From positions 1 through 63,124 of the forward strand of contig JADIMW010000076.1 in assembly GCA_017694415.1 (NCBI GenBank): DNA of 63,124 nt, in the 5' to 3' direction. Shown piece by piece: positions 2,393-55,872 of the stretch. Source of the DNA: Candidatus Caccoplasma merdipullorum. GTDB taxonomy: Bacteria; Bacteroidota; Bacteroidia; Bacteroidales; G3-4614. Each line of letters starts with the position of its first letter. Positions within the stretch are counted from its first letter, which is position 1. The notes beneath the pieces were generated by a model that saw only the letters and a program-made list of their open reading frames with translations, did not search any database and was not told the DNA's origin. A program made the position numbers and the translations under genes.

Positions 2393-2400
2393 ACCTACAT

Positions 2401-3438
2401 TTATTTAGATTGTTCATATGCTGCAATCATGGATTTCATAATTGCTTTTATTATTGGCACACTGACTGAGTTTCCCAATTGTTTGTATGCTTGATTGTCA
2501 GAAACAGGCATTATAAAATCATCTGGAAATCCCTGTAATCTTTTAGCTTCCAAGACAGAAAGTTTCCTTTCTAAATCCCAAAGTTTTGGAGTGCGACCTG
2601 CTATTATTGTTGGAGCATACGTATCCAAGCAAGCATAAAATGCCTCTTGTATCTGAGTTTTGGCAATATCCCCTACATGAAACCTAAGAGAACCGTCCGG
2701 CTTTTGATAAGAGAACACACCGTATTTACCTTTCTTTGTATTAGGAGCATACTTGGAATTATCATGCTGCACTCTCTCCTGCTCAGAACAATGAGCAAAA
2801 TGAAACTTAATCCTGTCTATCTCAAATTTAGTAAGTTTCAAATTGGCTGAATGATCATTTACATCAACAATGTCTCTTAATACCGGATTTCCACCTAGTG
2901 GTTTAGGAAACACATATTGAATCGGTTTATCAAAAGCGACACAATACCATCTTTCTCTTTTTTGCGGCAAGCCGAAATCTAAAGAACTTAAAACAGTCCA
3001 ATATGGATAATAACCCAATTCTTTTAAATTAGAAAGAATTGTATTCAATGTTTGTCCATTTTTATGAGAAACCAACCCCTTTACATTTTCTAGAAATATC
3101 ATTTTAGGATGATGATATGAAACTATTCTACATATATCGAAAAATAAAGTACCTCTCGTTTGGTCTTCAAATCCTTGACATAGGCCGGCATAACTAAACG
3201 GCTGACAAGGGAATCCTGCAGTCAGTATGTCAAAAGTGGGAATGCTTTCCGCATCTATTTTAGTTATATCTCCTTTGGGGATCTCATTAAAATTAGCATT
3301 ATATGTTTCTTGTGCAAATCTATCTATGTCAGATGAAAAAACACATTGAACATTATTAGCTTCCATTGCAAGTCTAAATCCACCTATACCACAAAACAAA
3401 TCTATTCCTTTATATTTCATTTTCTTCATCTTGTTCAT
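2401..3438 (-). CDS. DNA (cytosine-5)-methyltransferase
   Basis: Canonical C5-MTase motifs are present: DLFCGIGG (I), GFPCQPFS (IV), ENVKGL (VI), QKRERW (VIII) and GNSVSVPI (X). Confidence 0.93.
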   Translation of the reverse strand: MNKMKKMKYKGIDLFCGIGGFRLAMEANNVQCVFSSDIDRFAQETYNANFNEIPKGDITKIDAESIPTFDILTAGFPCQPFSYAGLCQGFEDQTRGTLFFDICRIVSYHHPKMIFLENVKGLVSHKNGQTLNTILSNLKELGYYPYWTVLSSLDFGLPQKRERWYCVAFDKPIQYVFPKPLGGNPVLRDIVDVNDHSANLKLTKFEIDRIKFHFAHCSEQERVQHDNSKYAPNTKKGKYGVFSYQKPDGSLRFHVGDIAKTQIQEAFYACLDTYAPTIIAGRTPKLWDLERKLSVLEAKRLQGFPDDFIMPVSDNQAYKQLGNSVSVPIIKAIMKSMIAAYEQSK

Positions 3439-43479: not shown

Positions 43480-44565
43480 ATGGTTGATAACGGTCATTAT
43501 TATTATTATTTCATCGTTGGAATGGCTGTCGCTTTTTTCGGGATAATGGGCGTTATGAACTTATGGCAGCCGGAAAACCGACTGCGGAAAATTCTCGGCG
43601 GGATACTTGTTTTCTGGATGGTTCAGCATATAGTATCGGTCTGTTTTATTTCGGACTTCTATTCCAACAACAGATATTTCAGCAGAATAATCAATGCTTT
43701 CGATATGACAGCCACTCCTACCTGTTGTTTCTTGCTGGTGGAGTTATGCAAACCCGGCTGGCTGACTTGGCGTAAGGTTGTGTATAACGAACTCCCGTTC
43801 GTTATTCTCGGCTTGGCATTTATAATGCTGGATAATGTTCTTTGGTATTATGCTCTTGTGGGATTTTTTGTTGCATACAGTATTACCGTTACTTTTTTTA
43901 TCGTACATTTTATAACCGAATACAACAAATTCCTAAAAGCTCACTTCTCGTACGACGAAAATATTAACTTGAGGTGGCTATATGCCGTACTGGCTACATT
44001 CATAGTCCTGATGCTGGTTTATGCCGCGTGCAGTTTATACGATACTGCTGTCGGCGACAGCGTTTATATTGCAGGTTCTATTATCGGGTGGGCAATGATT
44101 TGTTATTTTATCCAACGGCAGGAATCGGTTTTACTTGAACTCGACCCTGTTAAGGAGGAAGGGAATGATGACAAGGAGGTATGGCCGGATTGCGAAGTTC
44201 CCCGCAACCTCGCAAAATTGATACAGGAACGTTTTATCGAACCGCAACTGTTTTTAAACCCTCAATTAAAACTCGGAGACATGGTGCAGGCCATAGGGAC
44301 AAACCGTACTTACATGAGCCGGTATCTGAACGACATATTGAAAACGAACTTTTACGATTATATTAATGGCCTGAGACTGAAATACGCACAAAAACTTATC
44401 GAACAGTCGCAATACAGCATTAAGGCCATCGCCGCAATCGCGGGCTTTAACAGCTATTCTACTTTCAGACGCTCTTTTATCGCCACTTACAAGCAATCTC
44501 CTCAAGAATACAGAAACAACATACAACAGATAAATTATGAACGAACAGCAAAGAAACCAATATAA
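43480..44565 (+). CDS. AraC-family transcriptional regulator with an N-terminal polytopic membrane domain
   Basis: The N-terminal ~200 aa are hydrophobic with about 6 TM segments. The C-terminal HTH_18/AraC domain has LGDMVQAIGTNRTYMSRYLN... and IAAIAGFNSYSTFRRSFIATYKQSPQEYR. Confidence 0.8.
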   Translation: MVDNGHYYYYFIVGMAVAFFGIMGVMNLWQPENRLRKILGGILVFWMVQHIVSVCFISDFYSNNRYFSRIINAFDMTATPTCCFLLVELCKPGWLTWRKVVYNELPFVILGLAFIMLDNVLWYYALVGFFVAYSITVTFFIVHFITEYNKFLKAHFSYDENINLRWLYAVLATFIVLMLVYAACSLYDTAVGDSVYIAGSIIGWAMICYFIQRQESVLLELDPVKEEGNDDKEVWPDCEVPRNLAKLIQERFIEPQLFLNPQLKLGDMVQAIGTNRTYMSRYLNDILKTNFYDYINGLRLKYAQKLIEQSQYSIKAIAAIAGFNSYSTFRRSFIATYKQSPQEYRNNIQQINYERTAKKPI

Positions 44566-45544
44566 AGAGAAAGAAGAGGCTTTGAGTAAAACACAAAGCT
44601 GCTCGCATGAACACCGCAAACTGATATGCGGCAACTGCGGCGCGACTTACGACGACGGCGACCTGTTCTGCCCTGAGTGCGGGAACAGGCTCGGCGGCAG
44701 GAAATGTCCGAATTGTCATGCCGAAATAACCGCAACTTGCGAAATTTGCCCTAAATGCGGAAAACCTACCGACTTGGGACATTGCTCGTTCTGCGGAGCG
44801 GAGTTCGAAGGGGATGAACCGTTTTGCGGAGAGTGCGGCTCGCCGCGGGCGGGAATTGTATGTCCCGATTGCGGCACAAAATCGTTCCGCTCGTTCTGTC
44901 CCAACTGCAACAGGCCACTGAACGACAATGCCATGATGGCAATGGAACAGGCGAAAAACGACCCTAAATATCAACGGGTTCTCAGCATTAACAAGGAAAT
45001 GGCCGAAATGGAGGAATACCTTATCAGTTTTAAAAATGAAATTGAAAAGGCTATTGCCGAAGCGGAGGCCGAGATGGATGCTCCCGATGTTCCGGGTCTT
45101 AGTGCCGAGGGAGAGGCTTTACAGGCCAAATATGCCGAATTGATGAAATTGCTGGGTAACCAGCCTAATAATATGCCGCAGCCGAATACCAAGGCTGCAC
45201 GGCCTAAAGAATCGGTAAAGCGCAAGCGCGATTTGAAACTGAAGTTTGCCGATGCCGATAAAATAATGGAGGCATATAAGGCTAAGGCCGCAGAAATGCA
45301 GTCGGCATTGAAAGAGATGCTTCCCGACGCCGACATGACTCCTGCTCAACAGCGCGATTATGCTTGCGCCAGAAAAGTTCCTGTAATAATCAGGGAAAAA
45401 GAGGAGAAGAAGACATGGTGGGTTTGCAACTACTGCGGATGTTATCATCGCCAACCTTCGGAATGTGCCGAACCGTGGCAGGGCGGGACATGGCTTACCG
45501 AAGAAATCGTGGTAGAGAAAAAGATATGGCAATATATGGACTAA
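44537..45544 (+). CDS. Multi-zinc-ribbon coiled-coil protein (four tandem CxxC...CxxC ribbons, a coiled coil, and a C-terminal Cys/Trp-rich motif)
   Basis: Ribbons: CGNCG..CPECG, CPNCH..CPKCG, CSFCG..CGECG and CPDCG..CPNCN (aa 31-125). A K/E/A-rich helical middle follows. The tail is WWVCNYCGCYHRQPSECAEPWQGGTW. The ATG overlaps the AraC gene end by 29 nt. Confidence 0.75.
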   Translation: MNEQQRNQYKEKEEALSKTQSCSHEHRKLICGNCGATYDDGDLFCPECGNRLGGRKCPNCHAEITATCEICPKCGKPTDLGHCSFCGAEFEGDEPFCGECGSPRAGIVCPDCGTKSFRSFCPNCNRPLNDNAMMAMEQAKNDPKYQRVLSINKEMAEMEEYLISFKNEIEKAIAEAEAEMDAPDVPGLSAEGEALQAKYAELMKLLGNQPNNMPQPNTKAARPKESVKRKRDLKLKFADADKIMEAYKAKAAEMQSALKEMLPDADMTPAQQRDYACARKVPVIIREKEEKKTWWVCNYCGCYHRQPSECAEPWQGGTWLTEEIVVEKKIWQYMD

Positions 45545-45560
45545 TCTAAATTTTACTATA

Positions 45561-48500
45561 ATGTCGAGTACAATACGTCCTGACGGGACTCTACGTTCTC
45601 CGTCCGACAAAAAGAACAATGGCGGCACACAACGCCCGAACAACGATATAAAACCTTTTGACGACGAAAAAGCCGCTCAATCGGGTACGCAACGCCCTGC
45701 GGCAACGGGCAACCGTCCGCAACAATCCGGTACGCAACGCCCGGATAGCGGTATCAAGCCTTTCGACGGCGGGAACTCTTCTCAGTCGGGTACACAACGC
45801 CCTGCGGCAACGGGCAACCGTCCGCAACAATCCGGCACGCAACGCCCGGGCAGCGGTATCAAGCCTTTCGACGGCGGGAACTCTTCTCAATCGGGAACAA
45901 AGCGTCCTGCAACGGCAGACGAGCAGTCGAAGAAATCGGGTACGCAACGCCCTTCGTTAGACAAAGACAAACAACAGGCAGCTAATAAGCAACAGGTTAA
46001 AGCCGCAGATATAAAAGTGCTTAAACGGGATGATGAATCGTCTGCAAAGGAGTTCGTGCTGAATGGCGTCGTTTATACTGTCGAAGGGCTTATATCGTCT
46101 TCGACGGGAGAGGCCGAGGTGTATAAATTGAGCAAAGGGGGTAATTTGTACGCGTTGAAACTTTATTACTGCGGGTATTCTCCCGACCCTGAAGTGATAA
46201 AGATTCTTAAGGGGATTACCGGTACGGGATTTCTTGTGGATATTATCGATGCCGGTACATGGACTTCTCCGCAGGGGGAGGTGCGCGATTATGAATTGCA
46301 GCCTTATTACAGCGGCGGAGAACTGACGGCTGGAGCGATGAAAAACAAGGCCGAGGTTTTAAAAGCTACTGCTGCGGGGATGATTATGGCGGTAAAGGTA
46401 GCTCACGACCATAATATCTTGCATAAGGATATTAAACCGGGAAATTTCTTCTATTGCGACGAGAGCCATTCTCAAATTATTTTGGCGGATTTCGGTATCG
46501 CGTCGGCATTTAAGCGCGACAGCTCCGGGACAATGATTCCGCTTAAGGCTTATGCGCAATGGAGAACGAAGATTTATGCGGCTCCTGAAATATATACGGC
46601 CATAGACGGGGAGATAGAATATCCCGACGAGAAAAGCGATTATTATTCGCTCGGCATGTCGCTGCTTACCTTGTGGATTGGGGAAAAACCGTTCGAGAAT
46701 ATCGACGAACGCGCGATGATACGTCTGAAACGCGGGGAGAGCGGGACTCTTCCCTACCCCGACGATATGCCGCAACAATTGCTGCATCTGATAAAGGGAC
46801 TGACTGTTCCCAACCCTGAAAAGCGTTGGGGATTCAACGAATTTGAGCGATGGGCGAGAGGCGAGAATGTCCCCGCGGAGGATAATTCACGCCCGTCGGC
46901 AAGCGGACTGAATATTCTTTACAACGGTTCGAAAAATCAAGTCGCTACTTCGAAGGAAGAACTGGCCGCCTTTATGATGGATGATACGAAACTTGCCGAA
47001 CAATACTTGTATAGCGGAAAGATATCGAACTGGATGCTGGAGGCGGGTTATCCCGAAGTGCAAATTCAGATAGATGAAATTATAAATAAACTTTATCCTA
47101 AATCGCGGTACAGCGGAGTAATGGCTGTTTGCTACCTGCTCGATGCCGGGCTGCCGTTTATCGGGATAAAGGGGGACAAACTGAATACCAATGCGGAGAT
47201 TGCCGATGATATAGCCAACAACCCCGATGAATATCAGAAATCGCTCGTTAATGCCGATGCTCCGCTCTATGTGTTTTTCAATGCGAACGGTATTAACCTC
47301 GCCGACAAGTTTCTGCCTATTTTCAAGAAGAATTCCTGGCACGCCGTATGGCAACTCGTTTTTACGCTCGACCCTGCCCACCCGTTTCCTTACAATAATC
47401 CGGAATCGAAAATATTCCGCTGGTGCGATTCGGTAGAGGAGATTATCGACGCTTATGCTTCAGGCCCGATGGATAAATTTACCGATTTGGGTTATCGTAA
47501 CCGGTTCAACACTTATTGCGAACTTATGCTCGGCGATGCGTTCTTCTTATGGCTGGCTCACCGCGACCCGGCTTTAGCAGGCAAGATTAAGAGCAAACTC
47601 TCCGGCGAAAAGGATACGAAGGGGCATCTTATTTACTATCTGCTTTACCTCCTCGACCCTGAACTGCCTTATGAACTCGATAAAAATGCCGACAGCAAAC
47701 ATTTCAACGCCGCACAAATAGGTGTTATGGTCAACACCGATTTACTGATGTATTATATTGCAGGGCGCGAAGAGGGGTACGACAAGTTCGAAAAGAATCT
47801 CGAATCGGCAAACATGCTTGTCGACTGCCGCGATAACAGAATATACTACTATTTGAAGAGTAAGGACGTTTACAAAGACAAACTCGATTATATCTATTAT
47901 TGTTTCGACCTCGAATCGAAAGACAACAAACGGAAAGCGGGACCTTATGATGTCAATATCGCAATATTCAAAGCTATCAAGGCTCTGGCCGGCGATACGT
48001 TCTACTTCTTTCCGAAAAGCGGGAATAGCGTTTCATCGCTCGACGAATTGAAAGATGTGCCTATGGATGAGCAACAATATGAATTGCAAAACGGATTGTT
48101 GAGACATTGGCTGGCCGTACAGTTCCAGGAAGACCCGTTTGCAGACCTTTCGGAAGAGTATTCTTACGAGAATCTGCTGGCTGAATATACCATAGCTCTT
48201 TCCGAAATAGACCCCGGAATTGAAGAACTGCAACGTTTCAACGATGCTTGCGATGATATACAGGGCAGGGTTGACAAGATAAAGAGGAATATCCGAAGTA
48301 TTCGGATAATAAGAGGAGTATGGTATCTCCTCGTTGCACTGCCCCTGCTGCTGATTGGCACAGCGTATTTTATTTGGGGCGTCGAATCGCAATTGACTTC
48401 CGTTATCTCGTGGAAATGGGTTTGGCTGCCGATATTGTCGCTGGCTATACCGCTGCGTTTTCTGCAAATCGTTCCCGCCATCGAGAATGGGTTTACTTCG

Positions 48501-49214
48501 CTTTTCGGCGAAAAACTGGGGGATGCTCTTACCTACCACCGCTGGATTACCTCCGTTTTAATAGCTGCCGTTCCGATTCTGCTTTTTAAGGCAATAGATG
48601 AATGGGGCGGAGAGTACGGTTTTATCTTTATGTCTGTTATTTGCCTCGCTGTTTTATGGGTGCAGTTTTACAAGACAATATTGTCATGCAGACTCTATAT
48701 TAAGTCTTACGACAATGAAATAAATCCGGATGTCGAAGCCGGCACTATCGAACCGCTTTTCTACGCATGGAAAGACAAGGATTCGGATGCGCCTTTTGAA
48801 TCTTCGATAGAAGACGACCAGACATTTTACAACAATGCTCTCGGCGCGATACGCAGAACTACGCTACGGAAAATTTTCAGCGGACTGGTTTATGTTATTC
48901 TTATTTTCTCCTTATGGAGCATTACGTCGCCGGCAAGCACAAAACTGATGCAGCAATATTGCCCGGGTTTTTATGAAATGGTAAGGGAGAGCATGGAGGG
49001 TAGCGCCGCCCAAACCTCGACATATCAGGTCATAAACGTCAAAAGTTCTTTGATGGTACGAGAGAAACCGACTACAAGTTCAACTGCCATCGGTTCGCTG
49101 CGCAACGGACAAAAGATAGAAGTTTATGAAATAGTGGACGGGTTCGCCCGTATCAAATACGGCGACCGCGAGGGGTATGTTAAGGAGACTTACTTGAAAC
49201 TGATTAATGATTAG
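45561..49214 (+). CDS. Transmembrane Hanks-type Ser/Thr protein kinase with a TQRP-repeat N-terminal tail, an unknown ~460-aa central region, ~5 TM helices and a C-terminal SH3b domain
   Basis: Kinase motifs (aa ~165-432): YALKLY (catalytic Lys), HKDIKPGNF (catalytic loop), DFGIA and YAAPEIY. Hydrophobic helices span aa ~915-1125. The C-terminal segment YQVINVKSSLMVREKPTTSSTAIGSLRNGQKIEVYEIVDGFARIKYGDREGYV is SH3_3-like. Confidence 0.85.
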   Translation: MSSTIRPDGTLRSPSDKKNNGGTQRPNNDIKPFDDEKAAQSGTQRPAATGNRPQQSGTQRPDSGIKPFDGGNSSQSGTQRPAATGNRPQQSGTQRPGSGIKPFDGGNSSQSGTKRPATADEQSKKSGTQRPSLDKDKQQAANKQQVKAADIKVLKRDDESSAKEFVLNGVVYTVEGLISSSTGEAEVYKLSKGGNLYALKLYYCGYSPDPEVIKILKGITGTGFLVDIIDAGTWTSPQGEVRDYELQPYYSGGELTAGAMKNKAEVLKATAAGMIMAVKVAHDHNILHKDIKPGNFFYCDESHSQIILADFGIASAFKRDSSGTMIPLKAYAQWRTKIYAAPEIYTAIDGEIEYPDEKSDYYSLGMSLLTLWIGEKPFENIDERAMIRLKRGESGTLPYPDDMPQQLLHLIKGLTVPNPEKRWGFNEFERWARGENVPAEDNSRPSASGLNILYNGSKNQVATSKEELAAFMMDDTKLAEQYLYSGKISNWMLEAGYPEVQIQIDEIINKLYPKSRYSGVMAVCYLLDAGLPFIGIKGDKLNTNAEIADDIANNPDEYQKSLVNADAPLYVFFNANGINLADKFLPIFKKNSWHAVWQLVFTLDPAHPFPYNNPESKIFRWCDSVEEIIDAYASGPMDKFTDLGYRNRFNTYCELMLGDAFFLWLAHRDPALAGKIKSKLSGEKDTKGHLIYYLLYLLDPELPYELDKNADSKHFNAAQIGVMVNTDLLMYYIAGREEGYDKFEKNLESANMLVDCRDNRIYYYLKSKDVYKDKLDYIYYCFDLESKDNKRKAGPYDVNIAIFKAIKALAGDTFYFFPKSGNSVSSLDELKDVPMDEQQYELQNGLLRHWLAVQFQEDPFADLSEEYSYENLLAEYTIALSEIDPGIEELQRFNDACDDIQGRVDKIKRNIRSIRIIRGVWYLLVALPLLLIGTAYFIWGVESQLTSVISWKWVWLPILSLAIPLRFLQIVPAIENGFTSLFGEKLGDALTYHRWITSVLIAAVPILLFKAIDEWGGEYGFIFMSVICLAVLWVQFYKTILSCRLYIKSYDNEINPDVEAGTIEPLFYAWKDKDSDAPFESSIEDDQTFYNNALGAIRRTTLRKIFSGLVYVILIFSLWSITSPASTKLMQQYCPGFYEMVRESMEGSAAQTSTYQVINVKSSLMVREKPTTSSTAIGSLRNGQKIEVYEIVDGFARIKYGDREGYVKETYLKLIND
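45684..45893 (+). repeat. 105-bp in-frame tandem duplication (2 copies, 5 mismatches by my count) inside the kinase N-terminal tail
   Basis: Copy 1 is 45684-45788 and copy 2 is 45789-45893. Each encodes GTQRPAATGNRPQQSGTQRP(D/G)SGIKPFDGGNSSQS. More diverged copies flank them. Confidence 0.9.
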
Positions 49215-49219
49215 GTGTC

Positions 49220-52200
49220 ATGAAATGTAATAATTGTAATACGGATAATCGTCAGGAGGCTCTGTTTTGTAAACATTGCGGAGGGAAACTCGCTCTGCCC
49301 GATACCGACCCGTTTATCGGACTCGTCGGACTTACGGATATTAAACAGCAGATAGCCCAGCTTATTACCACCTTCAATTCTGTGAAGAACAGGGGTGCGA
49401 ATATTACCATCGGGTGCGATACTATTATCATGGGAGCCTCGGGTACCGGCAAGACTCATCTTGCCAACGCTATCGCCAAGGCTCTTTACAGCGCGAATAT
49501 CGTAAAACAGCCGAGGCCGCTAGTTGTGGATGCGGTAGATTGGGATAATTTCGTAAAGGACTGGCAGGAGAATATAAAAAAGGTTCAGGACGGTATTCTT
49601 ATTATAGACAATGTTCAGAAACTTGTTCCGGACGGGTATTCGAAGAATGTTGACAAACTCGATATCTTGTTCAGCGGAATGGACAAGTGGAACGGGAATC
49701 CCATCGTTATAATAACAGGTCTCCCGGACGGATTCAGGGAATATATAGAAGGGAATCCGCAGGTGAGGAACAAGTTTGAGTATTTCTTCCGACTTGAAGA
49801 GTATTCGGCTCAGGAACTTACGGCTATTTGCATAAAGGCTCTGTCGGAAAAATACAAGGTAGGCATAGAAGCCGATGCTTACGGCAAGCTCGAAAGGGTA
49901 ATGATGTTCATTGTCAGGAATAAACCTGAGGGTTGGGGCAACGCTCATGCCGCCCTGAAAATGGCCGATGAGATTTTCTACAACATGGTGCGCCGGGGCG
50001 GAGAAACTGTTTCGTGTGCGGATATCGAGGGTACCGAGTATCGGGACAAGACTTCGGAGGAGATTATGGCGGAACTTGACGAGTTCGTCGGTATCGACAA
50101 TATTCGTACTGAGATAAGGAACTTGATTTCGGAACTAGAATTGAGCAAGGTCCGCTCGAACAAGGACGGCAGCGGCGAGATTAATTCGCATTATATTTTT
50201 TCGGGTAATCCCGGTACGGGCAAAACTACGATAGCTCGCAAAATGGCCGATATTTTCAAAGCTATGGGGGTACTGCCCATAGGGCATCTGGTAGAGGCAG
50301 ACCGCAGCAAACTCGTCGGACAATATGTCGGACAAACGGCAATACAGACAAACAGACTTATAGATAAAGCCATGGGCGGCGTTTTGCTTATAGACGAGGC
50401 TTATACGCTTAATCAGGGGGACAGCGACAATTTCGGACATGAAGCTATCGATACTCTGCTGAAACGACTGGAGGATGACCGCGGGAAGTTCGTATGTATC
50501 GTTGCCGGATATACAAAACAGATGTTCGATTTTATACAGTCGAACCCCGGACTTAAATCGCGCTTTAACAAGGATATTCGCTTTGAGGATTATGACGGGG
50601 GTTCGCTTACGGCGATATTCCGCCAACAGATGGCTTCGAAATCGAAAGAGATGCCCCGGCCGCTGACTTTATCGGACGAGGCGGAACGTAACTTGCGCAA
50701 CTTCTTCGATATGATGTATGCCACCAGAGACAGGAATTTCGGTAATGCAAGGGATGTGCGAAAAGTATTCGAAACAGCCATGTCGCGACAAAGCGCCAGA
50801 CTTACCAAATTGCGTACCGAGGGGCAATTTACTCCCGACATGTTGTTCGTCCTTACCCGCGACGATATTGAAGGGGATGAAAATACACGCGAACTGAATC
50901 TCGACGACATTATGGCTAAAATGGAACGCGAGTTTGTCGGCATGCAATCGGTTAAAGACGCCATGCGGACAATAGGCAAGAAAATGGCTACGAACAGGTT
51001 GAGAATGGAACATGGCGTGGGCGATGCCAAAACTCTTGGCATACATATAAAACTTACGGGTAACCCGGGTACGGGAAAGACCACCGTTGCCAGAACTCTG
51101 GGTGAAATGTTGAAAGCGGTACATGTGCTTCCTACCGATAATGTAATAGAGGTTGACCGCAGCAAGTTGGTTTCGCAGTATGTAGGTGAAACGGCAAAGC
51201 TCGTAAACCAGACCATCGACCGCGCGATGGGGGGTATCTTGTTTGTGGACGAGGCTTATACGTTATCGCAGGATTCGGGCAGCGGCTCGGATTTCGGGAA
51301 GGAGGCTATCGAGACTTTGATGAAACGGATGGAGGACGACAGGGGCAAGTTCGTCTGTATCCTCGCAGGCTACCGCAACGAGATGGATAATTTCATGAGG
51401 GTCAATCCGGGTATAAAGAGCCGCATTACACACCATATCCATATCGAGGATTATTCTCGCGACGAACTGCTGCAGATTTTCAAGAACATGGTGAAGAAGG
51501 AAAAAATGGTTCTTACGCCTGAAGCGGAAGAATTGTCGCGCCGCGCTGTCGATGAAATCGTTTCGGCTAAAAGCAAAGACTTCGGAAATGCCCGGGAAAT
51601 GAGGAAGCTGCTCAATACCACGCTCGACAATCAGGCTAACCGCATTGACAGGCTCGACGGCAATGTTACTAAGGAACAGCTTATAACAATAGAAGCGGAA
51701 GATATTCCGGTTGCAAAACATAAGGATATTGACGAGGAGGAATGTCTGAAGGCTCTCGACAAACTTGTCGGACTCGACGGTGTTAAACAGGAGGTGCGCA
51801 ATCTTGTAAATTACCTGAAGCTGGAAAAGATGCGTGCGGAAGCTCTCGGCAAAAAGTTCGCGGGCATGAGAGACCACTATCTTTTCCTCGGCAACCCGGG
51901 TACGGGAAAAACAACCGTCGCCAGAATAATGGCCGATGTATTCCTGTCGCTTGGCATAACGACGAAGAGCGGCATTGTTGAGGTTGACCGCAGTAAGCTT
52001 GTCGCAAAATACGTGGGTCATACTGCTGAACAAACCAACAACGTAATTGACAGCGCCATGGGCAGCATTCTGTTTATCGATGAGGCCTATACTCTTAATC
52101 AGGGTCCGCAGGACAATTTCGGGAATGAGGCTATCGACACTCTGCTGAAACGTATGGAGGATGACCGCGGCAAGTTCGTATGTATTGCTGCGGGGTATTC

Positions 52201-52549
52201 TTATGAGATGGGCGAGTTCCTCGCTGCCAACTCCGGATTGCAAAGCCGCTTTAACAAAACGATTGTATTCGAGGATTATGATGCTGCTTCGCTCGCTGAA
52301 ATATTCCGCCGCAAGGCTGCCGGAGAGAATTTCACCATGTCGCCCGAAGCTGAATCCGCCATGGTAAACCGCTTTGTCGAACTGTACGAAAACAGGACTC
52401 AAAACTTCGGTAATGCGCGCGAGGTTAATAATGTCTTCCAGAAAGTAAAAGAACGGCAAAGTCAGAGAATTATAGATATGATGATGAAGGGGGGGAGACC
52501 TTCGCCGGCCGACTTGTTGAGTTTTACGCCCGAAGATTTCGCTTTTTAA
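49220..52549 (+). CDS. Zinc-ribbon plus four tandem AAA+ modules (CbxX/CfxQ/SpoVK-like), with the first module degenerate
   Basis: N-terminal ribbon: CNNCN...CKHCG. Walker A motifs are GASGTGKTH (aa 72), GNPGTGKTT (aa 329), GNPGTGKTT (aa 614) and GNPGTGKTT (aa 891). Walker B is LIIDNV in module 1 and L(L/F)(I/V)DEAYTL in modules 2-4. DRGKFVCI(V/L/A)AGY recurs in modules 2-4. Confidence 0.85.
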   Translation: MKCNNCNTDNRQEALFCKHCGGKLALPDTDPFIGLVGLTDIKQQIAQLITTFNSVKNRGANITIGCDTIIMGASGTGKTHLANAIAKALYSANIVKQPRPLVVDAVDWDNFVKDWQENIKKVQDGILIIDNVQKLVPDGYSKNVDKLDILFSGMDKWNGNPIVIITGLPDGFREYIEGNPQVRNKFEYFFRLEEYSAQELTAICIKALSEKYKVGIEADAYGKLERVMMFIVRNKPEGWGNAHAALKMADEIFYNMVRRGGETVSCADIEGTEYRDKTSEEIMAELDEFVGIDNIRTEIRNLISELELSKVRSNKDGSGEINSHYIFSGNPGTGKTTIARKMADIFKAMGVLPIGHLVEADRSKLVGQYVGQTAIQTNRLIDKAMGGVLLIDEAYTLNQGDSDNFGHEAIDTLLKRLEDDRGKFVCIVAGYTKQMFDFIQSNPGLKSRFNKDIRFEDYDGGSLTAIFRQQMASKSKEMPRPLTLSDEAERNLRNFFDMMYATRDRNFGNARDVRKVFETAMSRQSARLTKLRTEGQFTPDMLFVLTRDDIEGDENTRELNLDDIMAKMEREFVGMQSVKDAMRTIGKKMATNRLRMEHGVGDAKTLGIHIKLTGNPGTGKTTVARTLGEMLKAVHVLPTDNVIEVDRSKLVSQYVGETAKLVNQTIDRAMGGILFVDEAYTLSQDSGSGSDFGKEAIETLMKRMEDDRGKFVCILAGYRNEMDNFMRVNPGIKSRITHHIHIEDYSRDELLQIFKNMVKKEKMVLTPEAEELSRRAVDEIVSAKSKDFGNAREMRKLLNTTLDNQANRIDRLDGNVTKEQLITIEAEDIPVAKHKDIDEEECLKALDKLVGLDGVKQEVRNLVNYLKLEKMRAEALGKKFAGMRDHYLFLGNPGTGKTTVARIMADVFLSLGITTKSGIVEVDRSKLVAKYVGHTAEQTNNVIDSAMGSILFIDEAYTLNQGPQDNFGNEAIDTLLKRMEDDRGKFVCIAAGYSYEMGEFLAANSGLQSRFNKTIVFEDYDAASLAEIFRRKAAGENFTMSPEAESAMVNRFVELYENRTQNFGNAREVNNVFQKVKERQSQRIIDMMMKGGRPSPADLLSFTPEDFAF

Positions 52550-52690
52550 AATTACTATTCCGCAATATCGATTTTATATTCAGAATAGTGAAAGAGTGGT
52601 ATTTACAAAGAATTAAAAATATAATGACACCGGAATATAATTGTTCCGAATAAGAACCGCCGGTGTTTAACTTATGATATTTTTTGATTT

Positions 52691-53350
52691 ATGATATGTC
52701 CTAAATGTAAAGCTGATATTCCTGATGATTCCTGGTTCTGCGACCAATGCGGTTGCGAGTTGATGTTTTGCCCTAAATGTAAATCTCCGGCAAAAGGAAA
52801 ACGCTGTACTCAATGCGGCTCGGAACTGGTTACGGGCAAGGAGCTGGGTTTATTCGCGTCTCAACCGGCAACGGCAGCCTCGACGACGCAAGTCCCAAAC
52901 ATTTCTCAACAGCAGAATAATACTACGACGAATATCGACTATAACGATGTATTGAAAAATAACATTTCTGCTCAACCGCAGCCACGGCAACAGGCTCAAC
53001 CGTCCGGTTCTTCTACTTTGCGCGGCTCGTCCGACAGCGCAGGGGGCGTCGATGCGGGTCCTTCCAGACTGGTTATGTTGGATGACCCGTCGAAAGTTGT
53101 GGTGTTTAAGGATAACGGTATTATCGGAAGGACAAACGGAGATTATCTGGATGTTTTTTCGAACCTGCCTTATGTCAGCGGCACGCACGCCAAATTTACA
53201 TTGCACTCGTCGAAGCAATGGCTTATTGCAGACCTCGGTTCGACGAACGGTACGAAATTGCAGAATACCGACTTGATACCTAACAGTAATTATCTGCTTA
53301 AAAAGGGGCAGATTATAGAAATAGGATTCGTTAAATTCAGAGTGGAATGA
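52691..53350 (+). CDS. Double zinc-ribbon plus FHA domain protein
   Basis: N-terminal ribbons CPKCK..CDQCG and CPKCK..CTQCG are followed by a Q/T/S-rich linker. The C-terminal FHA has GIIGRTNGDY...VSGTHAKF...LIADLGSTNGTKL. Confidence 0.85.
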   Translation: MICPKCKADIPDDSWFCDQCGCELMFCPKCKSPAKGKRCTQCGSELVTGKELGLFASQPATAASTTQVPNISQQQNNTTTNIDYNDVLKNNISAQPQPRQQAQPSGSSTLRGSSDSAGGVDAGPSRLVMLDDPSKVVVFKDNGIIGRTNGDYLDVFSNLPYVSGTHAKFTLHSSKQWLIADLGSTNGTKLQNTDLIPNSNYLLKKGQIIEIGFVKFRVE

Positions 53351-54093
53351 AAATCATATACGATGCGGCAAGCGATATGGGGTGCGTACGCTCCAATAAC
53401 GAAGACATGATTCTTATAGACAGGTCTTTCCTGCGCGATGAATCGGCTTCGGGCGAGGTTTTAGTGGATGGCAACAGCAGATTCTGTGCTATTGTTGCAG
53501 ACGGAATGGGAGGAAATAACGGTGGCGAGTTTGCTTCGGATATTGCCTGCCAGGAGTTCGATTCATGGATTAACGATATTCCCTCTAAATTGACTCATGG
53601 GGAGATTCGTGCAAAAGTAAACGAATTTGTACTTAATACTCACACCCTTATAAACTGCAAAGGGGATGAAATGGAGGAATTTAGCGGTATGGGTACCACT
53701 CTCGTCGGCATTTTCTTCTATGAAGGCAGTTCGTATTGGGTCAATATCGGGGATAGCCGCATATATATTTACAGGGACGGCATATTGCGTCAGATTTCAC
53801 GCGACCATTCGATGCGGAACTTGATGAACAATCCGGAACTGCCGGCTAACCTCATTTACAACTCTCTCGGGTCGGGAACCGGCACTGACAGCTTCGCCGA
53901 CTGCGACAATATACCTCTTTTTGAAAATGACTGCATCTTGATTTGTTCGGATGGCCTGAGCGATATGGTCGATGATGAAAAATTAGCTCTTCTGCTTAAA
54001 CAATATGCACCTGCTTCAGCATATGTTTCTTCTGCTAAAGCAGCCGGAGGGGAAGATAACATTTCTGTTATAACCTTATCAATATATAAATAA
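53347..54093 (+). CDS. PP2C-family Ser/Thr protein phosphatase (Stp1/PrpC-like)
   Basis: Motifs are RSNNEDM, VADGMGG, GTTLVG, NIGDSRIY, SDGLSD and GGEDNISVI. The start overlaps the FHA gene stop (ATGA). Confidence 0.9.
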   Translation: MKIIYDAASDMGCVRSNNEDMILIDRSFLRDESASGEVLVDGNSRFCAIVADGMGGNNGGEFASDIACQEFDSWINDIPSKLTHGEIRAKVNEFVLNTHTLINCKGDEMEEFSGMGTTLVGIFFYEGSSYWVNIGDSRIYIYRDGILRQISRDHSMRNLMNNPELPANLIYNSLGSGTGTDSFADCDNIPLFENDCILICSDGLSDMVDDEKLALLLKQYAPASAYVSSAKAAGGEDNISVITLSIYK

Positions 54094-54183
54094 CCTTCTC
54101 CACGCGAATTAGCACTTTCTCGGTGCTTGGTTTATATTTTGAAAAACTTTGAATCAATTAATATGAAAATAGAAATTCCCCGT

Positions 54184-54308: not shown

Positions 54309-55214
54309 GTGTATCTGAAAATAAGTCATTGGAAATGTTCGTTGCATGATTGGGACGACTATTACAGTAATGATAACGACAATAAGCAAAATTGTCGTTT
54401 TTGCGAAGATTGTTTTTTCCCTTTAAAGTTGGGGGTAATTGAAAAATACCCGTTTTTCGAAATAACGGAAATAAATGCGACAGACATAGAAGTTTGTCAT
54501 TCCGGCGGAGGACTCGCAAGCTACGGTACTTTCTGCCGTGAGGTGTCGCATGTTATCCCGTCTGCCGACGAAATTGTCAGATATAAAAAAGAAAAAATAT
54601 CCGTAAACTCATCTGTTCAAATTTATTATGGTTTCTGTTACAGCGAATCCGAAACGAGAGATTATTTCGAACTCGAACTGTTAGATGGACCTTGTTCGCG
54701 CAAGACATGGAACATGATGCGGGTACAACACGAAGGGTGTATCATAACCTTTCAGCGCGAGGATATAGTTCCCAACAGCAAATTGAGCGATATTCGCCGA
54801 CGTCCCGACAACTCTGAAATCCCGTGGCTTAATATCAAAATAAAAGAAATTTATACGGAGGGCTTGTCGGTAATGTTCGATAATTTCAATTATATTTATC
54901 ACGTAAAATGCGATGCTCCGATACGGGAAAACGGTGTAACAATATCATTGGTTTCGTGTATCGAACTGTTTGAAAGCGACATTGAAAACGACTTTTTCCG
55001 CTATGAAATCGATATCGATATATGGGAAAATCATGAAAAGGATGCGGATGCAGCTCTTGCAGTGGCTGAAAGCATTGCCGAACAGACCCCGGAGGCTCTC
55101 GAAATTATCGCCCGTTATATGGATATTGCCGATTGTCTTGGGGCTGCCGATGCTCGTGCTTGGCTTGCCGACTATTATGGAACAACAGACTCAAAATACG
55201 ATGCTTATGTGTGA
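54309..55214 (+). CDS. Hypothetical protein (Cys-rich N-terminus, acidic helical C-terminus)
   Basis: 301-aa ORF with only non-ATG starts available (GTG at 54309 or TTG at 54342). I recognise no family. Coding potential is inferred from length and the overlap-coupled downstream gene. Confidence 0.5.
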   Translation: MYLKISHWKCSLHDWDDYYSNDNDNKQNCRFCEDCFFPLKLGVIEKYPFFEITEINATDIEVCHSGGGLASYGTFCREVSHVIPSADEIVRYKKEKISVNSSVQIYYGFCYSESETRDYFELELLDGPCSRKTWNMMRVQHEGCIITFQREDIVPNSKLSDIRRRPDNSEIPWLNIKIKEIYTEGLSVMFDNFNYIYHVKCDAPIRENGVTISLVSCIELFESDIENDFFRYEIDIDIWENHEKDADAALAVAESIAEQTPEALEIIARYMDIADCLGAADARAWLADYYGTTDSKYDAYV

Positions 55215-55872
55215 AGACTGTATTGATATACCTGAATACCGTAAGGAACTGCTTTCGAAAATAGCCGCCTCGCCGGATGATTTGGAAAGCATGGCTGAAT
55301 TGGTATGTGCCGATTGCCTTATCTGCGAGAAGAATGTAAAGGACTTCGGACCTGCATGGAAAAACTCCGTGTTTGTAAACGAAATACTGGAGTATGCTCC
55401 CGTATTGCTGAAGGAGAAAGGAAACGAATATGGCAATATTGTATTCAACGTATGCGATAGAGTGAAAGACGTGCTGTTTAATCACCCGCGCCTGATGGTA
55501 AAGCTGTTAAAACTGGAATTGAAGGCTCTTGATACAAGTAAGGATATTGACGGGGACAAACAGGAAATAAAAAAGGGTATAGAAAAAAAAATAGAGTTTC
55601 TCGAAGTAAATATTAAAAGGGCCGACATGGGGAATCTGGAACAGTGCGAAAATATCGGCATGTTGAAAAGAGACCCGGTGGAATGGACGGCAGAATATGA
55701 AAAAGTTATAGATGAGGCTGAAGAAAAAGCCAATGCCGAACTTGCGGATGTACCTCGCGGTATGGGATTCTGCCATGCTTACTGGCACTCTCTTGCCAAT
55801 ATTCTTTTCGAGGATTACGGTATTGTCTGGCGCAGCCCGGCCATGATGAATCCCGGCGTTATGTTCGACTGA
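55201..55872 (+). CDS. Hypothetical protein with the C-terminal motif GMGFCHAYWHSLANILFEDYGIVWRSPAMMNPGVMFD
   Basis: I chose the ATG at 55201 (MLMCEDC...) within the longer 54970-55872 ORF. It overlaps the upstream stop by 14 nt. Family unknown. Confidence 0.5.
   Translation: MLMCEDCIDIPEYRKELLSKIAASPDDLESMAELVCADCLICEKNVKDFGPAWKNSVFVNEILEYAPVLLKEKGNEYGNIVFNVCDRVKDVLFNHPRLMVKLLKLELKALDTSKDIDGDKQEIKKGIEKKIEFLEVNIKRADMGNLEQCENIGMLKRDPVEWTAEYEKVIDEAEEKANAELADVPRGMGFCHAYWHSLANILFEDYGIVWRSPAMMNPGVMFD

What the first reader, a model, noticed from the sequence alone, without database searches (positions are those of the whole stretch)
49220..52549. Single polypeptide with one degenerate and three canonical CbxX/SpoVK-type AAA+ modules
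CbxX/CfxQ, SpoVK and EccA-type ATPases normally carry one AAA+ module and assemble as homohexamers. Here four modules are concatenated (aa ~33-265, 283-550, 565-830, 842-1109). Module 1 has lost the Walker B acidic pair (IIDN in place of IDEA). Modules 2-4 are so similar that stretches are recognisable at the DNA level, for example gaggatgaccgcgg(g/c)aagttcgtatgta at 50471 and 52157. A dimer would supply six active modules, so the ring may be a pseudo-hexamer with built-in asymmetry. This is unusual for the family and points to a specialised remodelling or translocation role gated by the kinase.
Basis: partly seen in the sequence, partly recalled or inferred. Interest (0 to 1): 0.68.

Follow-up and report, generated by a model that had tools for sequence, protein, structure and literature searches.

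The report
Chained AAA+ ATPase in kinase cassette
This gene encodes one protein made of four linked ATP-motor units (one permanently switched off, three active); it belongs to a widespread but undescribed bacterial family with 2 to 9 such units that always sits beside a membrane kinase, a phosphatase and a phospho-threonine reader, suggesting a new phosphorylation-controlled protein-remodelling machine.

Summary
ORF 49220-52549 (+, 1109 aa) carries four SpoVK/CbbX/EccA-clade AAA+ modules. Module 1 has D-N at Walker B; modules 2-4 are fully canonical.

1. About 225 non-identical relatives share zinc ribbon + pseudo-ATPase module 1 + 1-8 further modules. They come from Bacteroidota, Ignavibacteriota, Spirochaetota and others.
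2. Canonical modules are of two paralogous types that alternate in 86% of junctions. The query is 1-B-A-B.
3. The gene sits in a conserved five-gene cassette, complete in 32 of 44 genome loci: multi-zinc-ribbon protein, membrane Ser/Thr kinase with a repeated-Thr tail, the AAA chain, zinc-ribbon-FHA, PP2C.

No module reaches the SpoVK, CbbX or EccA equivalog cut-offs, and no paper found describes the family.

Kinase linkage is strongly supported by synteny. The "dimer = six active modules" ring is only one possibility. Live-module counts are 2-6 and never exceed 6, but 4 and 5 make up 31%. AlphaFold2 does not fix the inter-module geometry (pTM 0.45 and 0.55).

Best reading: a phospho-regulated, pore-loop-bearing protein remodeller of unknown substrate. 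It is a new variant of a known kind and moderately to highly interesting.

The parts
49220..52549 (+). Whole ORF, 1109 aa: zinc ribbon, pseudo-ATPase module M1, and three canonical AAA+ modules of types B, A, B
49220..49294 (+). N-terminal zinc ribbon (aa 1-25; C3, C6, C17, C20)
   Evidence: The four Cys plus N10, R11, A14, K18 and G21 are invariant in alignments A1 and A2
49307..50041 (+). Module 1 (aa 30-274), a conserved pseudo-ATPase. Walker A is intact. Walker B is D-N, GY is GL, the Arg finger is K, sensor-2 is H, and there is no pore loop
   Evidence: It scores only 42-59 bits against the SpoVK, EccA and CbbX models
50066..50872 (+). Module 2 (aa 283-551), canonical, type B
50912..51709 (+). 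Module 3 (aa 565-830), canonical, type A. It is the module closest to CbbX
51746..52543 (+). Module 4 (aa 843-1108), canonical, type B
44537..45544 (+). Cassette gene 1: a 335-aa protein with several DZR-type zinc ribbons, a coiled-coil-like middle and a Cys-rich C-terminus
   Evidence: homologues detected in the same place in related loci
45561..49214 (+). Cassette gene 2: a 1217-aa Hanks-type Ser/Thr kinase. It has an N-terminal Thr-repeat tail, a kinase domain, a conserved middle region with no Pfam match, about 5 TM helices and a C-terminal SH3b
45621..45953 (+). Seven G-T-[QK]-R-P repeats in the kinase N-terminal tail (aa 21-131). These are candidate phospho-Thr docking sites
   Evidence: equivalent Thr-repeat tails in the kinases of 13 related loci
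52691..53350 (+). Cassette gene 4: a 219-aa protein with two zinc ribbons, a linker and an FHA domain
53347..54093 (+). Cassette gene 5: a 248-aa PP2C-type Ser/Thr phosphatase, followed by a terminator-like hairpin at 54111-54127

Best explanation
The ORF encodes the ATPase subunit of a conserved five-gene cassette that I could not find described anywhere.

The protein has three parts:
- an N-terminal zinc ribbon;
- a conserved first module that should bind ATP but not hydrolyse it. Walker A is kept; the catalytic Glu, sensor 1, sensor 2 and the pore loop are lost;
- three catalytically complete modules of two alternating paralogous types (B-A-B), each with an aromatic-x-Gly pore loop.

I think it most likely works as an ATP-driven protein remodeller or unfoldase. 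Its modules would assemble into ring(s) together with modules of further chains. The zinc ribbon and module 1 would act as the assembly or docking part.

Activity or recruitment would be switched by reversible threonine phosphorylation, as follows:
1. The membrane-anchored kinase phosphorylates the repeated Thr motifs in its own cytoplasmic tail.
2. The zinc-ribbon-FHA protein reads them and brings in, or licenses, the AAA chain at the membrane.
3. The PP2C phosphatase resets the switch.

Shown here: the architecture, the motif conservation, the family, the A/B alternation, the constrained spacing and the synteny. Inferred: ring formation, substrate threading, the order of the phospho-relay, and the role of module 1. 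Unknown: the substrate and the biological role.
For: Module identity and catalytic competence:
- The closest solved structures are CbbX (E 7e-54; fold TM 0.72-0.78 at 38% identity) and EccA1.
- In 40 four-module homologues, M2-M4 keep the Walker A Lys, Walker B D-E, GY, the Arg finger and the sensor-2 Arg in 38-40 of 40. They keep the pore-loop aromatic in 37-40 of 40.
- Across 721 live modules of 225 relatives, the Arg finger is kept in 718 and GY in 717.

M1 is conserved, not decaying:
- Walker A Lys is kept in 222 of 225 and the Walker B second residue is N in 196 of 225. The zinc-ribbon Cys are invariant in alignments A1 and A2.

Rigid, regular build:
- Walker A to Walker A spacing has a median of 278 aa, with 5-95% at 273-288, over 504 junctions.

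Functional linkage to phospho-signalling:
- All five genes are found together in 32 of 44 species genomes from several phyla. Nine more loci are cut by contig ends but consistent. The gene order differs in Spirochaetota and Roseateles.
- No sixth gene recurs with the cassette.
- Every kinase examined has a repeated-Thr N-terminal tail and C-terminal TM helices.

Analogy from established knowledge, not tested here: the PpkA/PppA/Fha1 threonine-phosphorylation pathway controls T6SS assembly and ClpV recruitment. CbbX threads the RbcL tail through its pore. SpoVK and EccA are narrow-substrate chaperones (PMC11513918).
Against: - No experiment exists on any member, and no substrate candidate is encoded in the cassette. 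The multi-zinc-ribbon protein or the kinase tail might be the substrate, but that is a guess.
- AlphaFold2 does not predict a defined inter-module arrangement. pTM is 0.45 for the full length and 0.55 for two modules, and the linkers fall below pLDDT 50. Ring assembly is therefore inferred from the clade only.
- FHA binding to the Thr repeats is inferred from domain logic alone.
- The SH3b domain, a possible sensor, was detected only in the window and its closest relative L007. The input signal is therefore not conserved.
Confidence: 0.55

Rival explanations
1. One reading: an in-plane pseudo-hexamer. Modules lie side by side in one ring, as in dynein or engineered single-chain ClpX. Two chains of this protein would supply 2 x 3 live modules, with M1 outside the ring as a regulatory appendage.
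For: - Live-module counts in the family never exceed six, even in 8- and 9-module proteins (1ABABABb, 1ABABABab).
- Counts of 2, 3 and 6 make up 149 of 225 proteins.
- Seventeen proteins have exactly six post-M1 modules, as 4 live + 2 dead or 5 live + 1 dead. This recalls dynein's dead AAA5 and AAA6.
- A/B alternation in 86% of junctions resembles alternating A3B3 hetero-hexamers such as Pex1/Pex6 or the two-subunit red-algal CbbX (from knowledge, not tested).
- The tight linker length suggests a fixed geometry.
Against: - Four and five live modules without dead fillers are common: (4,0) in 45 proteins and (5,0) in 7. Neither tiles a hexamer in a homo-oligomer.
- A dimer of B-A-B gives two B-B seams.
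- No dynein, midasin or RNF213 chain appears among the top 50 fold matches.
- pTM is low.
- The counts are not phylogenetically independent.
Confidence: 0.25
2. A stacked multi-tier machine. Six chains assemble so that each module position forms its own homotypic ring. This gives a 4-tier tube here and 3-9 tiers in relatives. The M1 ring would be an ATP-locked, non-hydrolysing assembly tier, like NSF-D2.
For: - This model tolerates any module number.
- Dead modules sit at the chain ends: always M1, and otherwise almost always the C-terminus, with only 2 exceptions.
- Dead modules lose their own cis elements and often their own Arg finger. M1 keeps R in 163 of 225, and C-terminal dead modules in 8 of 36. 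Neighbouring live modules keep theirs; M2 keeps R in 222 of 225. This is what homotypic contacts would predict.
- Two-module stretches of both models align with the stacked D1-D2 protomers of Cdc48, Rix7 and Drg1 at TM 0.50-0.56.
Against: - TM of about 0.5 at RMSD 8-10 A, from models with low pTM, is weak evidence.
- To my knowledge no AAA+ stack of more than two tiers is known.
- This model does not explain why live modules stop at six, or why types A and B alternate.
Confidence: 0.3
3. Biological role: a conflict or anti-phage (abortive-infection-like) system. The kinase would sense infection and the AAA chain would be the effector.
For: - The cassette is self-contained, patchily distributed over distant phyla and found in variable neighbourhoods.
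- Some loci lie near restriction-modification, Fic, ParDE or Dnd genes (L001 and L003).
- The kinase domain hits the defence kinases mad6 and PD-T4-6, and the AAA hits IetA and mad8. These are domain-level hits only.
Against: - No PADLOC system model is matched as a whole.
- The cassette has no nuclease, protease, NADase or pore-forming effector.
- The P. communis copies are 99.7-99.9% identical, so there is no sign of diversification.
- In the window the neighbours are housekeeping genes: metH, ddh, lgt.
Confidence: 0.2
4. Biological role: an envelope-biogenesis chaperone. Like SpoVK activating MurG, the AAA chain would remodel a membrane-proximal biosynthetic or secretion factor, in response to a cell-wall signal sensed by the kinase.
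For: - The SpoVK precedent (PMC11513918).
- All kinases examined are membrane-anchored.
- The window's kinase ends in a peptidoglycan-type SH3b domain.
- lgt and a DAP dehydrogenase gene lie just upstream.
Against: - SH3b was detected only in the window and L007.
- No envelope gene is conserved next to the cassette.
- The modules are not SpoVK orthologues.
Confidence: 0.15

Closest known systems
CbbX (red-type Rubisco activase; PDB 3SYL, 3ZUH)
   Same: It is the best sequence and fold match for each canonical module (38% identity, TM 0.72-0.78). It shares the GNPGTGKT Walker A, the Y-[VI]-G pore loop, DEAY, AGY, NPGxxSR and the sensor-2 Arg.
   Different: - CbbX has one module per chain and forms a homohexamer.
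- It has no zinc ribbon and no pseudo-ATPase module.
- None of the window ORFs I scanned is Rubisco.
- Each module scores 192-220 bits against a cut-off of 459.
EccA (type VII secretion AAA+ chaperone; PDB 9LUR)
   Same: Same clade. It is the second-best solved relative (E 1.5e-42) and a narrow-substrate chaperone (PMC11513918).
   Different: - EccA has an N-terminal TPR domain plus a single AAA module.
- No T7SS genes were found here.
- Each module scores 210-222 bits against a cut-off of 467.
SpoVK (sporulation AAA+ that activates MurG)
   Same: It gives the highest-scoring NCBIfam model per module (239-248 bits) and belongs to the same clade, with the GY and sensor-2 signatures (PMC11513918).
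   Different: - The scores are below the cut-off of 423.
- SpoVK is a single-module protein confined to sporulating Bacillota.
- This window is from a Bacteroidota chromosome.
Type II AAA+ proteins (Cdc48/p97, NSF, Rix7, Drg1, ClpB)
   Same: These have several AAA modules in one chain, and one tier can be a poorly hydrolysing assembly ring. Two-module stretches of the models align with them at TM 0.50-0.56.
   Different: - They have exactly two tiers.
- They belong to different clades (16-19% identity).
- Here there are 4 modules, and 2-9 in relatives, with two alternating paralogue types.
- The stacked geometry is not established for this protein.
Single-chain ring AAA+ proteins (dynein, midasin/Rea1, RNF213) and engineered single-chain ClpX
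   Same: Their AAA modules are concatenated with a mix of live and dead sites.
   Different: - They are eukaryotic, belong to the dynein/MoxR-related clade and always have six modules.
- They are not among the top fold hits.
- The module number is variable here.
T6SS threonine-phosphorylation pathway (PpkA kinase, PppA PP2C, Fha1, acting on ClpV AAA+)
   Same: A membrane Hanks kinase, a PP2C and an FHA protein are encoded beside, and presumably gate, an AAA+ ATPase.
   Different: - None of the window ORFs I scanned is a T6SS structural gene.
- The ATPase is not ClpV-type.
- The zinc ribbons on three components and the kinase Thr-repeat tail are specific to this cassette.

Membership tests
SpoVK-EccA-like clade of classical AAA+ (as defined in PMC11513918) | Conserved Tyr in the sensor-1 region (GY signature) | tested here: met
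   AGY is present in M2, M3 and M4, and Y is kept in 39-40 of 40 homologues. M1 has GL in 40 of 40.
SpoVK-EccA-like clade of classical AAA+ (as defined in PMC11513918) | Second arginine finger (sensor-2 Arg) retained | tested here: met
   GNAR is present in M2-M4, with R in 38-40 of 40. M1 has H in 39 of 40.
SpoVK-EccA-like clade of classical AAA+ (as defined in PMC11513918) | Conserved Asn upstream of the first Arg finger | tested here: met
   The N-P-G-x-x-S-R motif is present in M2-M4, with N in 39-40 of 40. It aligns column for column with CbbX NPGFRSRI. The spacing here is six positions, not the 'four residues' worded in the paper. It is identical to CbbX.
SpoVK (TIGR02881 equivalog) | Score at or above the curated cut-off of 422.95 bits for one module; confined to sporulating Bacillota | tested here: not met
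   Each module scores 239-248 bits. The whole-protein score of 761 is the sum of 4 copies. The window is from Bacteroidota, with SprA and T9SS CTD genes.
CbbX (TIGR02880 equivalog) | Score at or above 459.25 bits; partnered with red-type Rubisco | tested here: not met
   Each module scores 192-220 bits. None of the window ORFs I scanned is Rubisco.
EccA (TIGR03922 equivalog) | Score at or above 466.65 bits; N-terminal TPR domain; T7SS locus | tested here: not met
   Each module scores 210-222 bits, and only the C-terminal half of the model is matched. The N-terminus is a zinc ribbon. No T7SS genes were seen.
Stacked type II AAA+ (Cdc48, NSF, ClpB) | Consecutive modules of one chain lie in separate stacked rings | tested here: inconclusive
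   Two-module alignments give TM 0.50-0.56 at RMSD 8-10 A, from models with pTM 0.45 and 0.55.
Single-chain ring AAA+ (dynein, midasin, RNF213) | Six AAA modules of the dynein-related clade in one chain forming one ring | tested here: not met
   This protein has four modules of the classical clade. No such chain appears in the top 50 fold hits. The in-plane geometry itself is not excluded.
T6SS threonine-phosphorylation pathway | Kinase, PP2C and FHA genes encoded within a T6SS cluster that has ClpV | tested here: not met
   The kinase, PP2C and FHA triad is present. No T6SS structural genes were found among the window ORFs I scanned or in the flanks of related loci.
Known anti-phage systems (PADLOC-DB v2) | Full-length match of the components to a system's models | tested here: not met
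   Only domain-level hits were found: IetA, TRIP13 and mad8 for the AAA, and mad6 and PD-T4-6 for the kinase domain. There were none for the zinc-ribbon, FHA or PP2C proteins.
The family defined here: zinc ribbon + M1 pseudo-ATPase + (A/B)n, within the five-gene cassette | N-terminal CxxC..CxxC ribbon; M1 with Walker A intact and L-[FIV]-[IV]-D-N-[VA]-[QH]-K-L at Walker B; canonical modules following at a period of about 278 aa; flanked by DZR, STK, FHA and PP2C genes | tested here: met
   The window protein has all of these features.

The most novel reading that the evidence does not exclude
The family may be a new class of bacterial AAA+ machine. Classical-clade modules of two alternating types are concatenated 2-9 times behind a conserved ATP-locked pseudo-module. 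They would assemble either into a multi-tier tube or into an alternating A/B ring built from one, two or three chains. The machine would be switched at the membrane by a dedicated kinase, FHA and PP2C relay that reads a multivalent phospho-Thr array.
Probability: 0.45. Interest if true: 0.8.

Novelty: new variant of a known kind. Interest (0 to 1): 0.63.

Why it matters
As far as I know, all characterised members of the SpoVK/CbbX/EccA clade are single-module homohexamers with one dedicated client.

This would be a natural family in which such modules are fused in variable number. It has a conserved dead module, two alternating module types and at most six live sites. That makes it a ready-made system for asking how subunit order, dead sites and stoichiometry shape AAA+ ring mechanics. 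So far those questions have been addressed mainly with engineered single-chain ClpX or with dynein.

The strictly conserved kinase, FHA and PP2C partners also offer a compact bacterial model of phospho-threonine control of an unfoldase. The cassette occurs in gut and oral Bacteroidota (Prevotella, Bacteroides, Muribaculaceae), where its role is unknown.

Tried and rejected
1. Orthology to SpoVK, CbbX or EccA was rejected. The whole-protein scores pass the cut-offs only because four copies add up, and single modules score about half the cut-off.
2. Known defence system: PADLOC gave only domain-level hits.
3. Rapid diversification: four 'Prevotella communis' entries looked like separate 90% clusters but are 99.7-99.9% identical.
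4. A sixth conserved cassette gene: clustering of 427 flanking ORFs found only lineage-local synteny. The large upstream protein in the Melioribacteraceae loci is an ordinary hybrid histidine kinase.
5. The AraC-type membrane regulator overlapping the cassette start in the window does not appear upstream of the cassette in L001, L003 or L005, the related loci whose gene annotation I inspected.
6. Structure prediction to settle the geometry was inconclusive. The full-length model has pTM 0.45 and the two-module model 0.55.
7. Fold search against PDB gave neither a dynein-like nor a convincing p97-like two-module match.
8. Pfam found nothing in the kinase middle region, the kinase tail or the C-terminal half of the zinc-ribbon protein.
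9. The sigma-70 promoter scan was uninformative. Counts were near the shuffle expectation, and Bacteroidota promoters differ from the sigma-70 consensus.
10. I saw no obvious correlation between the number of kinase Thr repeats and the number of AAA modules.
11. Seven literature searches found no description of concatenated SpoVK/CbbX-type proteins or of this cassette. The library does not cover most subscription journals.


Full report
**1.

The ORF listing and translation show one uninterrupted ORF at 49220-52549 on the + strand, encoding 1109 aa. It starts 6 nt after the stop of the upstream kinase gene.

Pfam finds four AAA stretches and three AAA_lid_6 stretches. The NCBIfam models for SpoVK, EccA and CbbX each match four times.

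M2-M4 are 40-53% identical to each other, and M1 is 23-25% identical to them. Walker A is present in all four modules. Walker B is I-I-D-N in M1 and D-E in the other three.

The quoted 28-mer occurs at 50471 and 52157 with one mismatch. Longer direct DNA repeats of 60-74% identity have a period of about 830-860 nt.

**2.

Residues 1-25 form a CxxC...CxxC zinc ribbon.

M1 is degenerate in more than Walker B:
- The sensor-1 Tyr is Leu.
- The Arg finger is Lys.
- The sensor-2 Arg is His.
- The segment carrying the pore loop is missing.

These substitutions are conserved rather than random decay. In 40 four-module homologues the Walker A Lys is kept in 40, N131 in 40, Leu for Tyr in 40 and His for Arg in 39. 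The four Cys of the ribbon are invariant.

M2-M4 keep every catalytic residue in 38-40 of 40 homologues, and an aromatic-x-Gly pore loop in 37-40 of 40. So there are three competent, substrate-engaging modules plus one nucleotide-binding pseudo-module.

**3. It is a family, not a singleton**

The homologue search returned mostly full-length relatives of about 1110, 1390, 1670 and 1870-1940 aa, with 4, 5, 6 and 7 modules. The great majority have the zinc ribbon and D-N in the first module.

I then searched the 1.84-billion-protein representative library with the zinc ribbon plus M1. This gave 164 clusters at E <= 1e-30. Among the best 150:
- 62 clusters share the zinc ribbon plus M1 start. Most have 2-8 modules; 8 have a single module and are probably fragments.
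- 85 clusters are other multi-module SpoVK-type proteins with unrelated N-termini.

A pattern from the M1 Walker B region found the family in 44 species genomes. They come from Bacteroidota, Ignavibacteriota, WOR-3, Atribacterota, Spirochaetota and one Roseateles, with up to 9 modules.

The window itself is a Bacteroidota chromosome carrying SprA, a T9SS C-terminal-domain protein, MetH and Lgt.

**4. Internal logic of the chain**

- **Two module types.** A neighbour-joining tree of modules separates M1 from the canonical modules and splits those into two types, A and B.
- **Alternation.** Classifying about 230 family proteins gives the architectures 1ABA (53), 1BAB (40, including the query), 1ABAB (32) and 1AB (17), up to 1ABABABAB. 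Of 542 junctions, 468 (86%) alternate.
- **Growth in two-module steps.** Same-type modules within a protein are 47-87% identical, against 39-51% across types. In the long proteins M3/M5 and M4/M6 reach 73-87%, which indicates recent duplication of two-module units.
- **Constrained spacing.** Walker A to Walker A spacing has a median of 278 aa, with 5-95% at 273-288, over 504 junctions.
- **Dead modules at the ends.** Apart from M1, dead modules are almost always C-terminal.
- **A cap of six.** The number of live modules is 3 (108 proteins), 4 (54), 2 (37), 5 (15), 6 (4) and 1 or 0 (7). It never exceeds six.
- **Cis decay.** Dead modules tend to lose their own Arg finger. M1 keeps R in 163 of 225, and C-terminal dead modules in 8 of 36. 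The adjacent live modules keep theirs; M2 keeps R in 222 of 225.

These counts come from non-identical but related sequences, so they are descriptive rather than statistical.

**5. Context**

The gene order in the window is: multi-zinc-ribbon protein (44537-45544), Ser/Thr kinase (45561-49214), AAA chain, zinc-ribbon-FHA (52691-53350), PP2C (53347-54093).

The same five genes flank the AAA gene in:
- Prevotella communis (40% identity, 4 modules);
- a 7-module locus;
- a 5-module locus.

By phmmer of the window proteins against six-frame ORFs, all five genes are present in 32 of 44 genome loci. Of the remaining twelve:
- Nine are cut by contig ends but are consistent with the cassette.
- One lacks a detectable zinc-ribbon protein.
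- Two belong to a ribbon-less sister family.

In Spirochaetota and Roseateles the kinase gene has moved to the end of the cassette but is still present. No further gene family recurs with the cassette.

The kinases share:
- a disordered N-terminal tail with 4-9 short Thr motifs, which is seven G-T-[QK]-R-P repeats in the window;
- a conserved middle region with no Pfam match;
- C-terminal TM helices.

**6. Comparison with known families**

Each canonical module is closest to CbbX and EccA1, both in sequence and in predicted fold. Each carries the clade signatures listed in PMC11513918: GY, the Asn before the Arg finger, and the sensor-2 Arg.

Single modules score only 239-248, 192-220 and 210-222 bits against cut-offs of 423 (SpoVK), 459 (CbbX) and 467 (EccA). 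They are clade members, not orthologues of any characterised protein.

PADLOC gives only domain-level hits. Seven full-text searches found no description of concatenated SpoVK/CbbX-type proteins or of this cassette. The SpoVK paper's text does not mention tandem forms or kinases.

**7. Geometry is unresolved**

AlphaFold2 models the modules confidently (mean pLDDT 82.5 and 88.7) but not their arrangement. pTM is 0.45 for the full length and 0.55 for M3-M4, and the linkers fall below pLDDT 50.

Two-module stretches align only loosely with stacked D1-D2 protomers of Cdc48, Rix7 and Drg1 (TM 0.50-0.56, RMSD 8-10 A). No dynein-like chain appears in the top 50 matches.

The family data pull both ways:
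- **For homotypic tiers or another assembly:** the common counts of 4 and 5, the terminal position of dead modules and the cis pattern of decay.

**8. Verdict**

The kinase linkage and the remodeller character are well grounded by synteny and motif conservation. The dimeric pseudo-hexamer is one of at least two live structural models. 'Unusual' applies only relative to the characterised members.

I rate this a new variant of a known kind. It is a previously undescribed, widely distributed concatenated AAA+ family embedded in a dedicated phospho-threonine switch. Its substrate and biological role are unknown.

Noticed in passing
window 45621-45953 (kinase aa 21-131); kinases in L001, L003, L005, L007, L009, L012, L015, L020, L023, L038, L045, L047, L049: All cassette kinases carry a low-complexity N-terminal tail with 4-9 copies of a short Thr motif, often [DG]-x-T-x-R. 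The window has seven G-T-[QK]-R-P copies. Others have DKTIRTGG, DKTLRP, GGTMRQP or GTARID. The tail is probably a multivalent phospho-Thr array for the FHA protein.
   Followed up: partly
L006, L031, L037 (sister family, about 1266-aa AAA x4): A ribbon-less sister family of four-module proteins lacks the kinase cassette. In L006 it sits on a conjugative-transposon-like element (TraM/TraO/TraQ, integrase), between a ThiF-like E1 gene and an SH3 protein followed by a cluster of radical-SAM genes.
   Followed up: no
L004 (Bacillus cereus BAG5X1-1, P0034, 1928 aa): A TPR/ARM N-terminus is fused to five SpoVK-type modules, next to an HSP70/MreB-like gene and a TPR protein. This is another, unrelated multi-module architecture of the same clade. 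At least 85 representative clusters of such 'other' multi-module proteins were seen.
   Followed up: no
window 43480-44565 (+): This ORF encodes an AraC-type regulator with about five predicted TM helices ahead of its HTH_18 domain. It overlaps the start of the zinc-ribbon gene by 29 nt. No such gene lies upstream of the cassette in L001, L003 or L005.
   Followed up: partly
window 52550-52690: A 141-nt gap separates the AAA and FHA genes, the only sizeable gap in the cassette. It can fold into hairpins, including ACACCGG...CCGGTGT at 52627 (MFE -26.7 kcal/mol). It also holds the best sigma-70-like promoter match of the region (52613-52641). Its function is unknown.
   Followed up: no
window 329-3438 (-): A McrB-like AAA_5 protein (687 aa) lies next to a C-5 cytosine DNA methylase (345 aa). 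This is a probable restriction-modification pair in a low-GC stretch (35-39% against about 48% elsewhere).
   Followed up: no
window 54309-55872 (+): Two overlapping ORFs of about 300 aa lie directly after the cassette terminator. Neither has a Pfam match, and it is unclear which of them, if either, is a real gene.
   Followed up: no
L020 and L021 (Melioribacteraceae): The 9-module loci carry two paralogous multi-zinc-ribbon genes upstream of the kinase gene instead of one.
   Followed up: no
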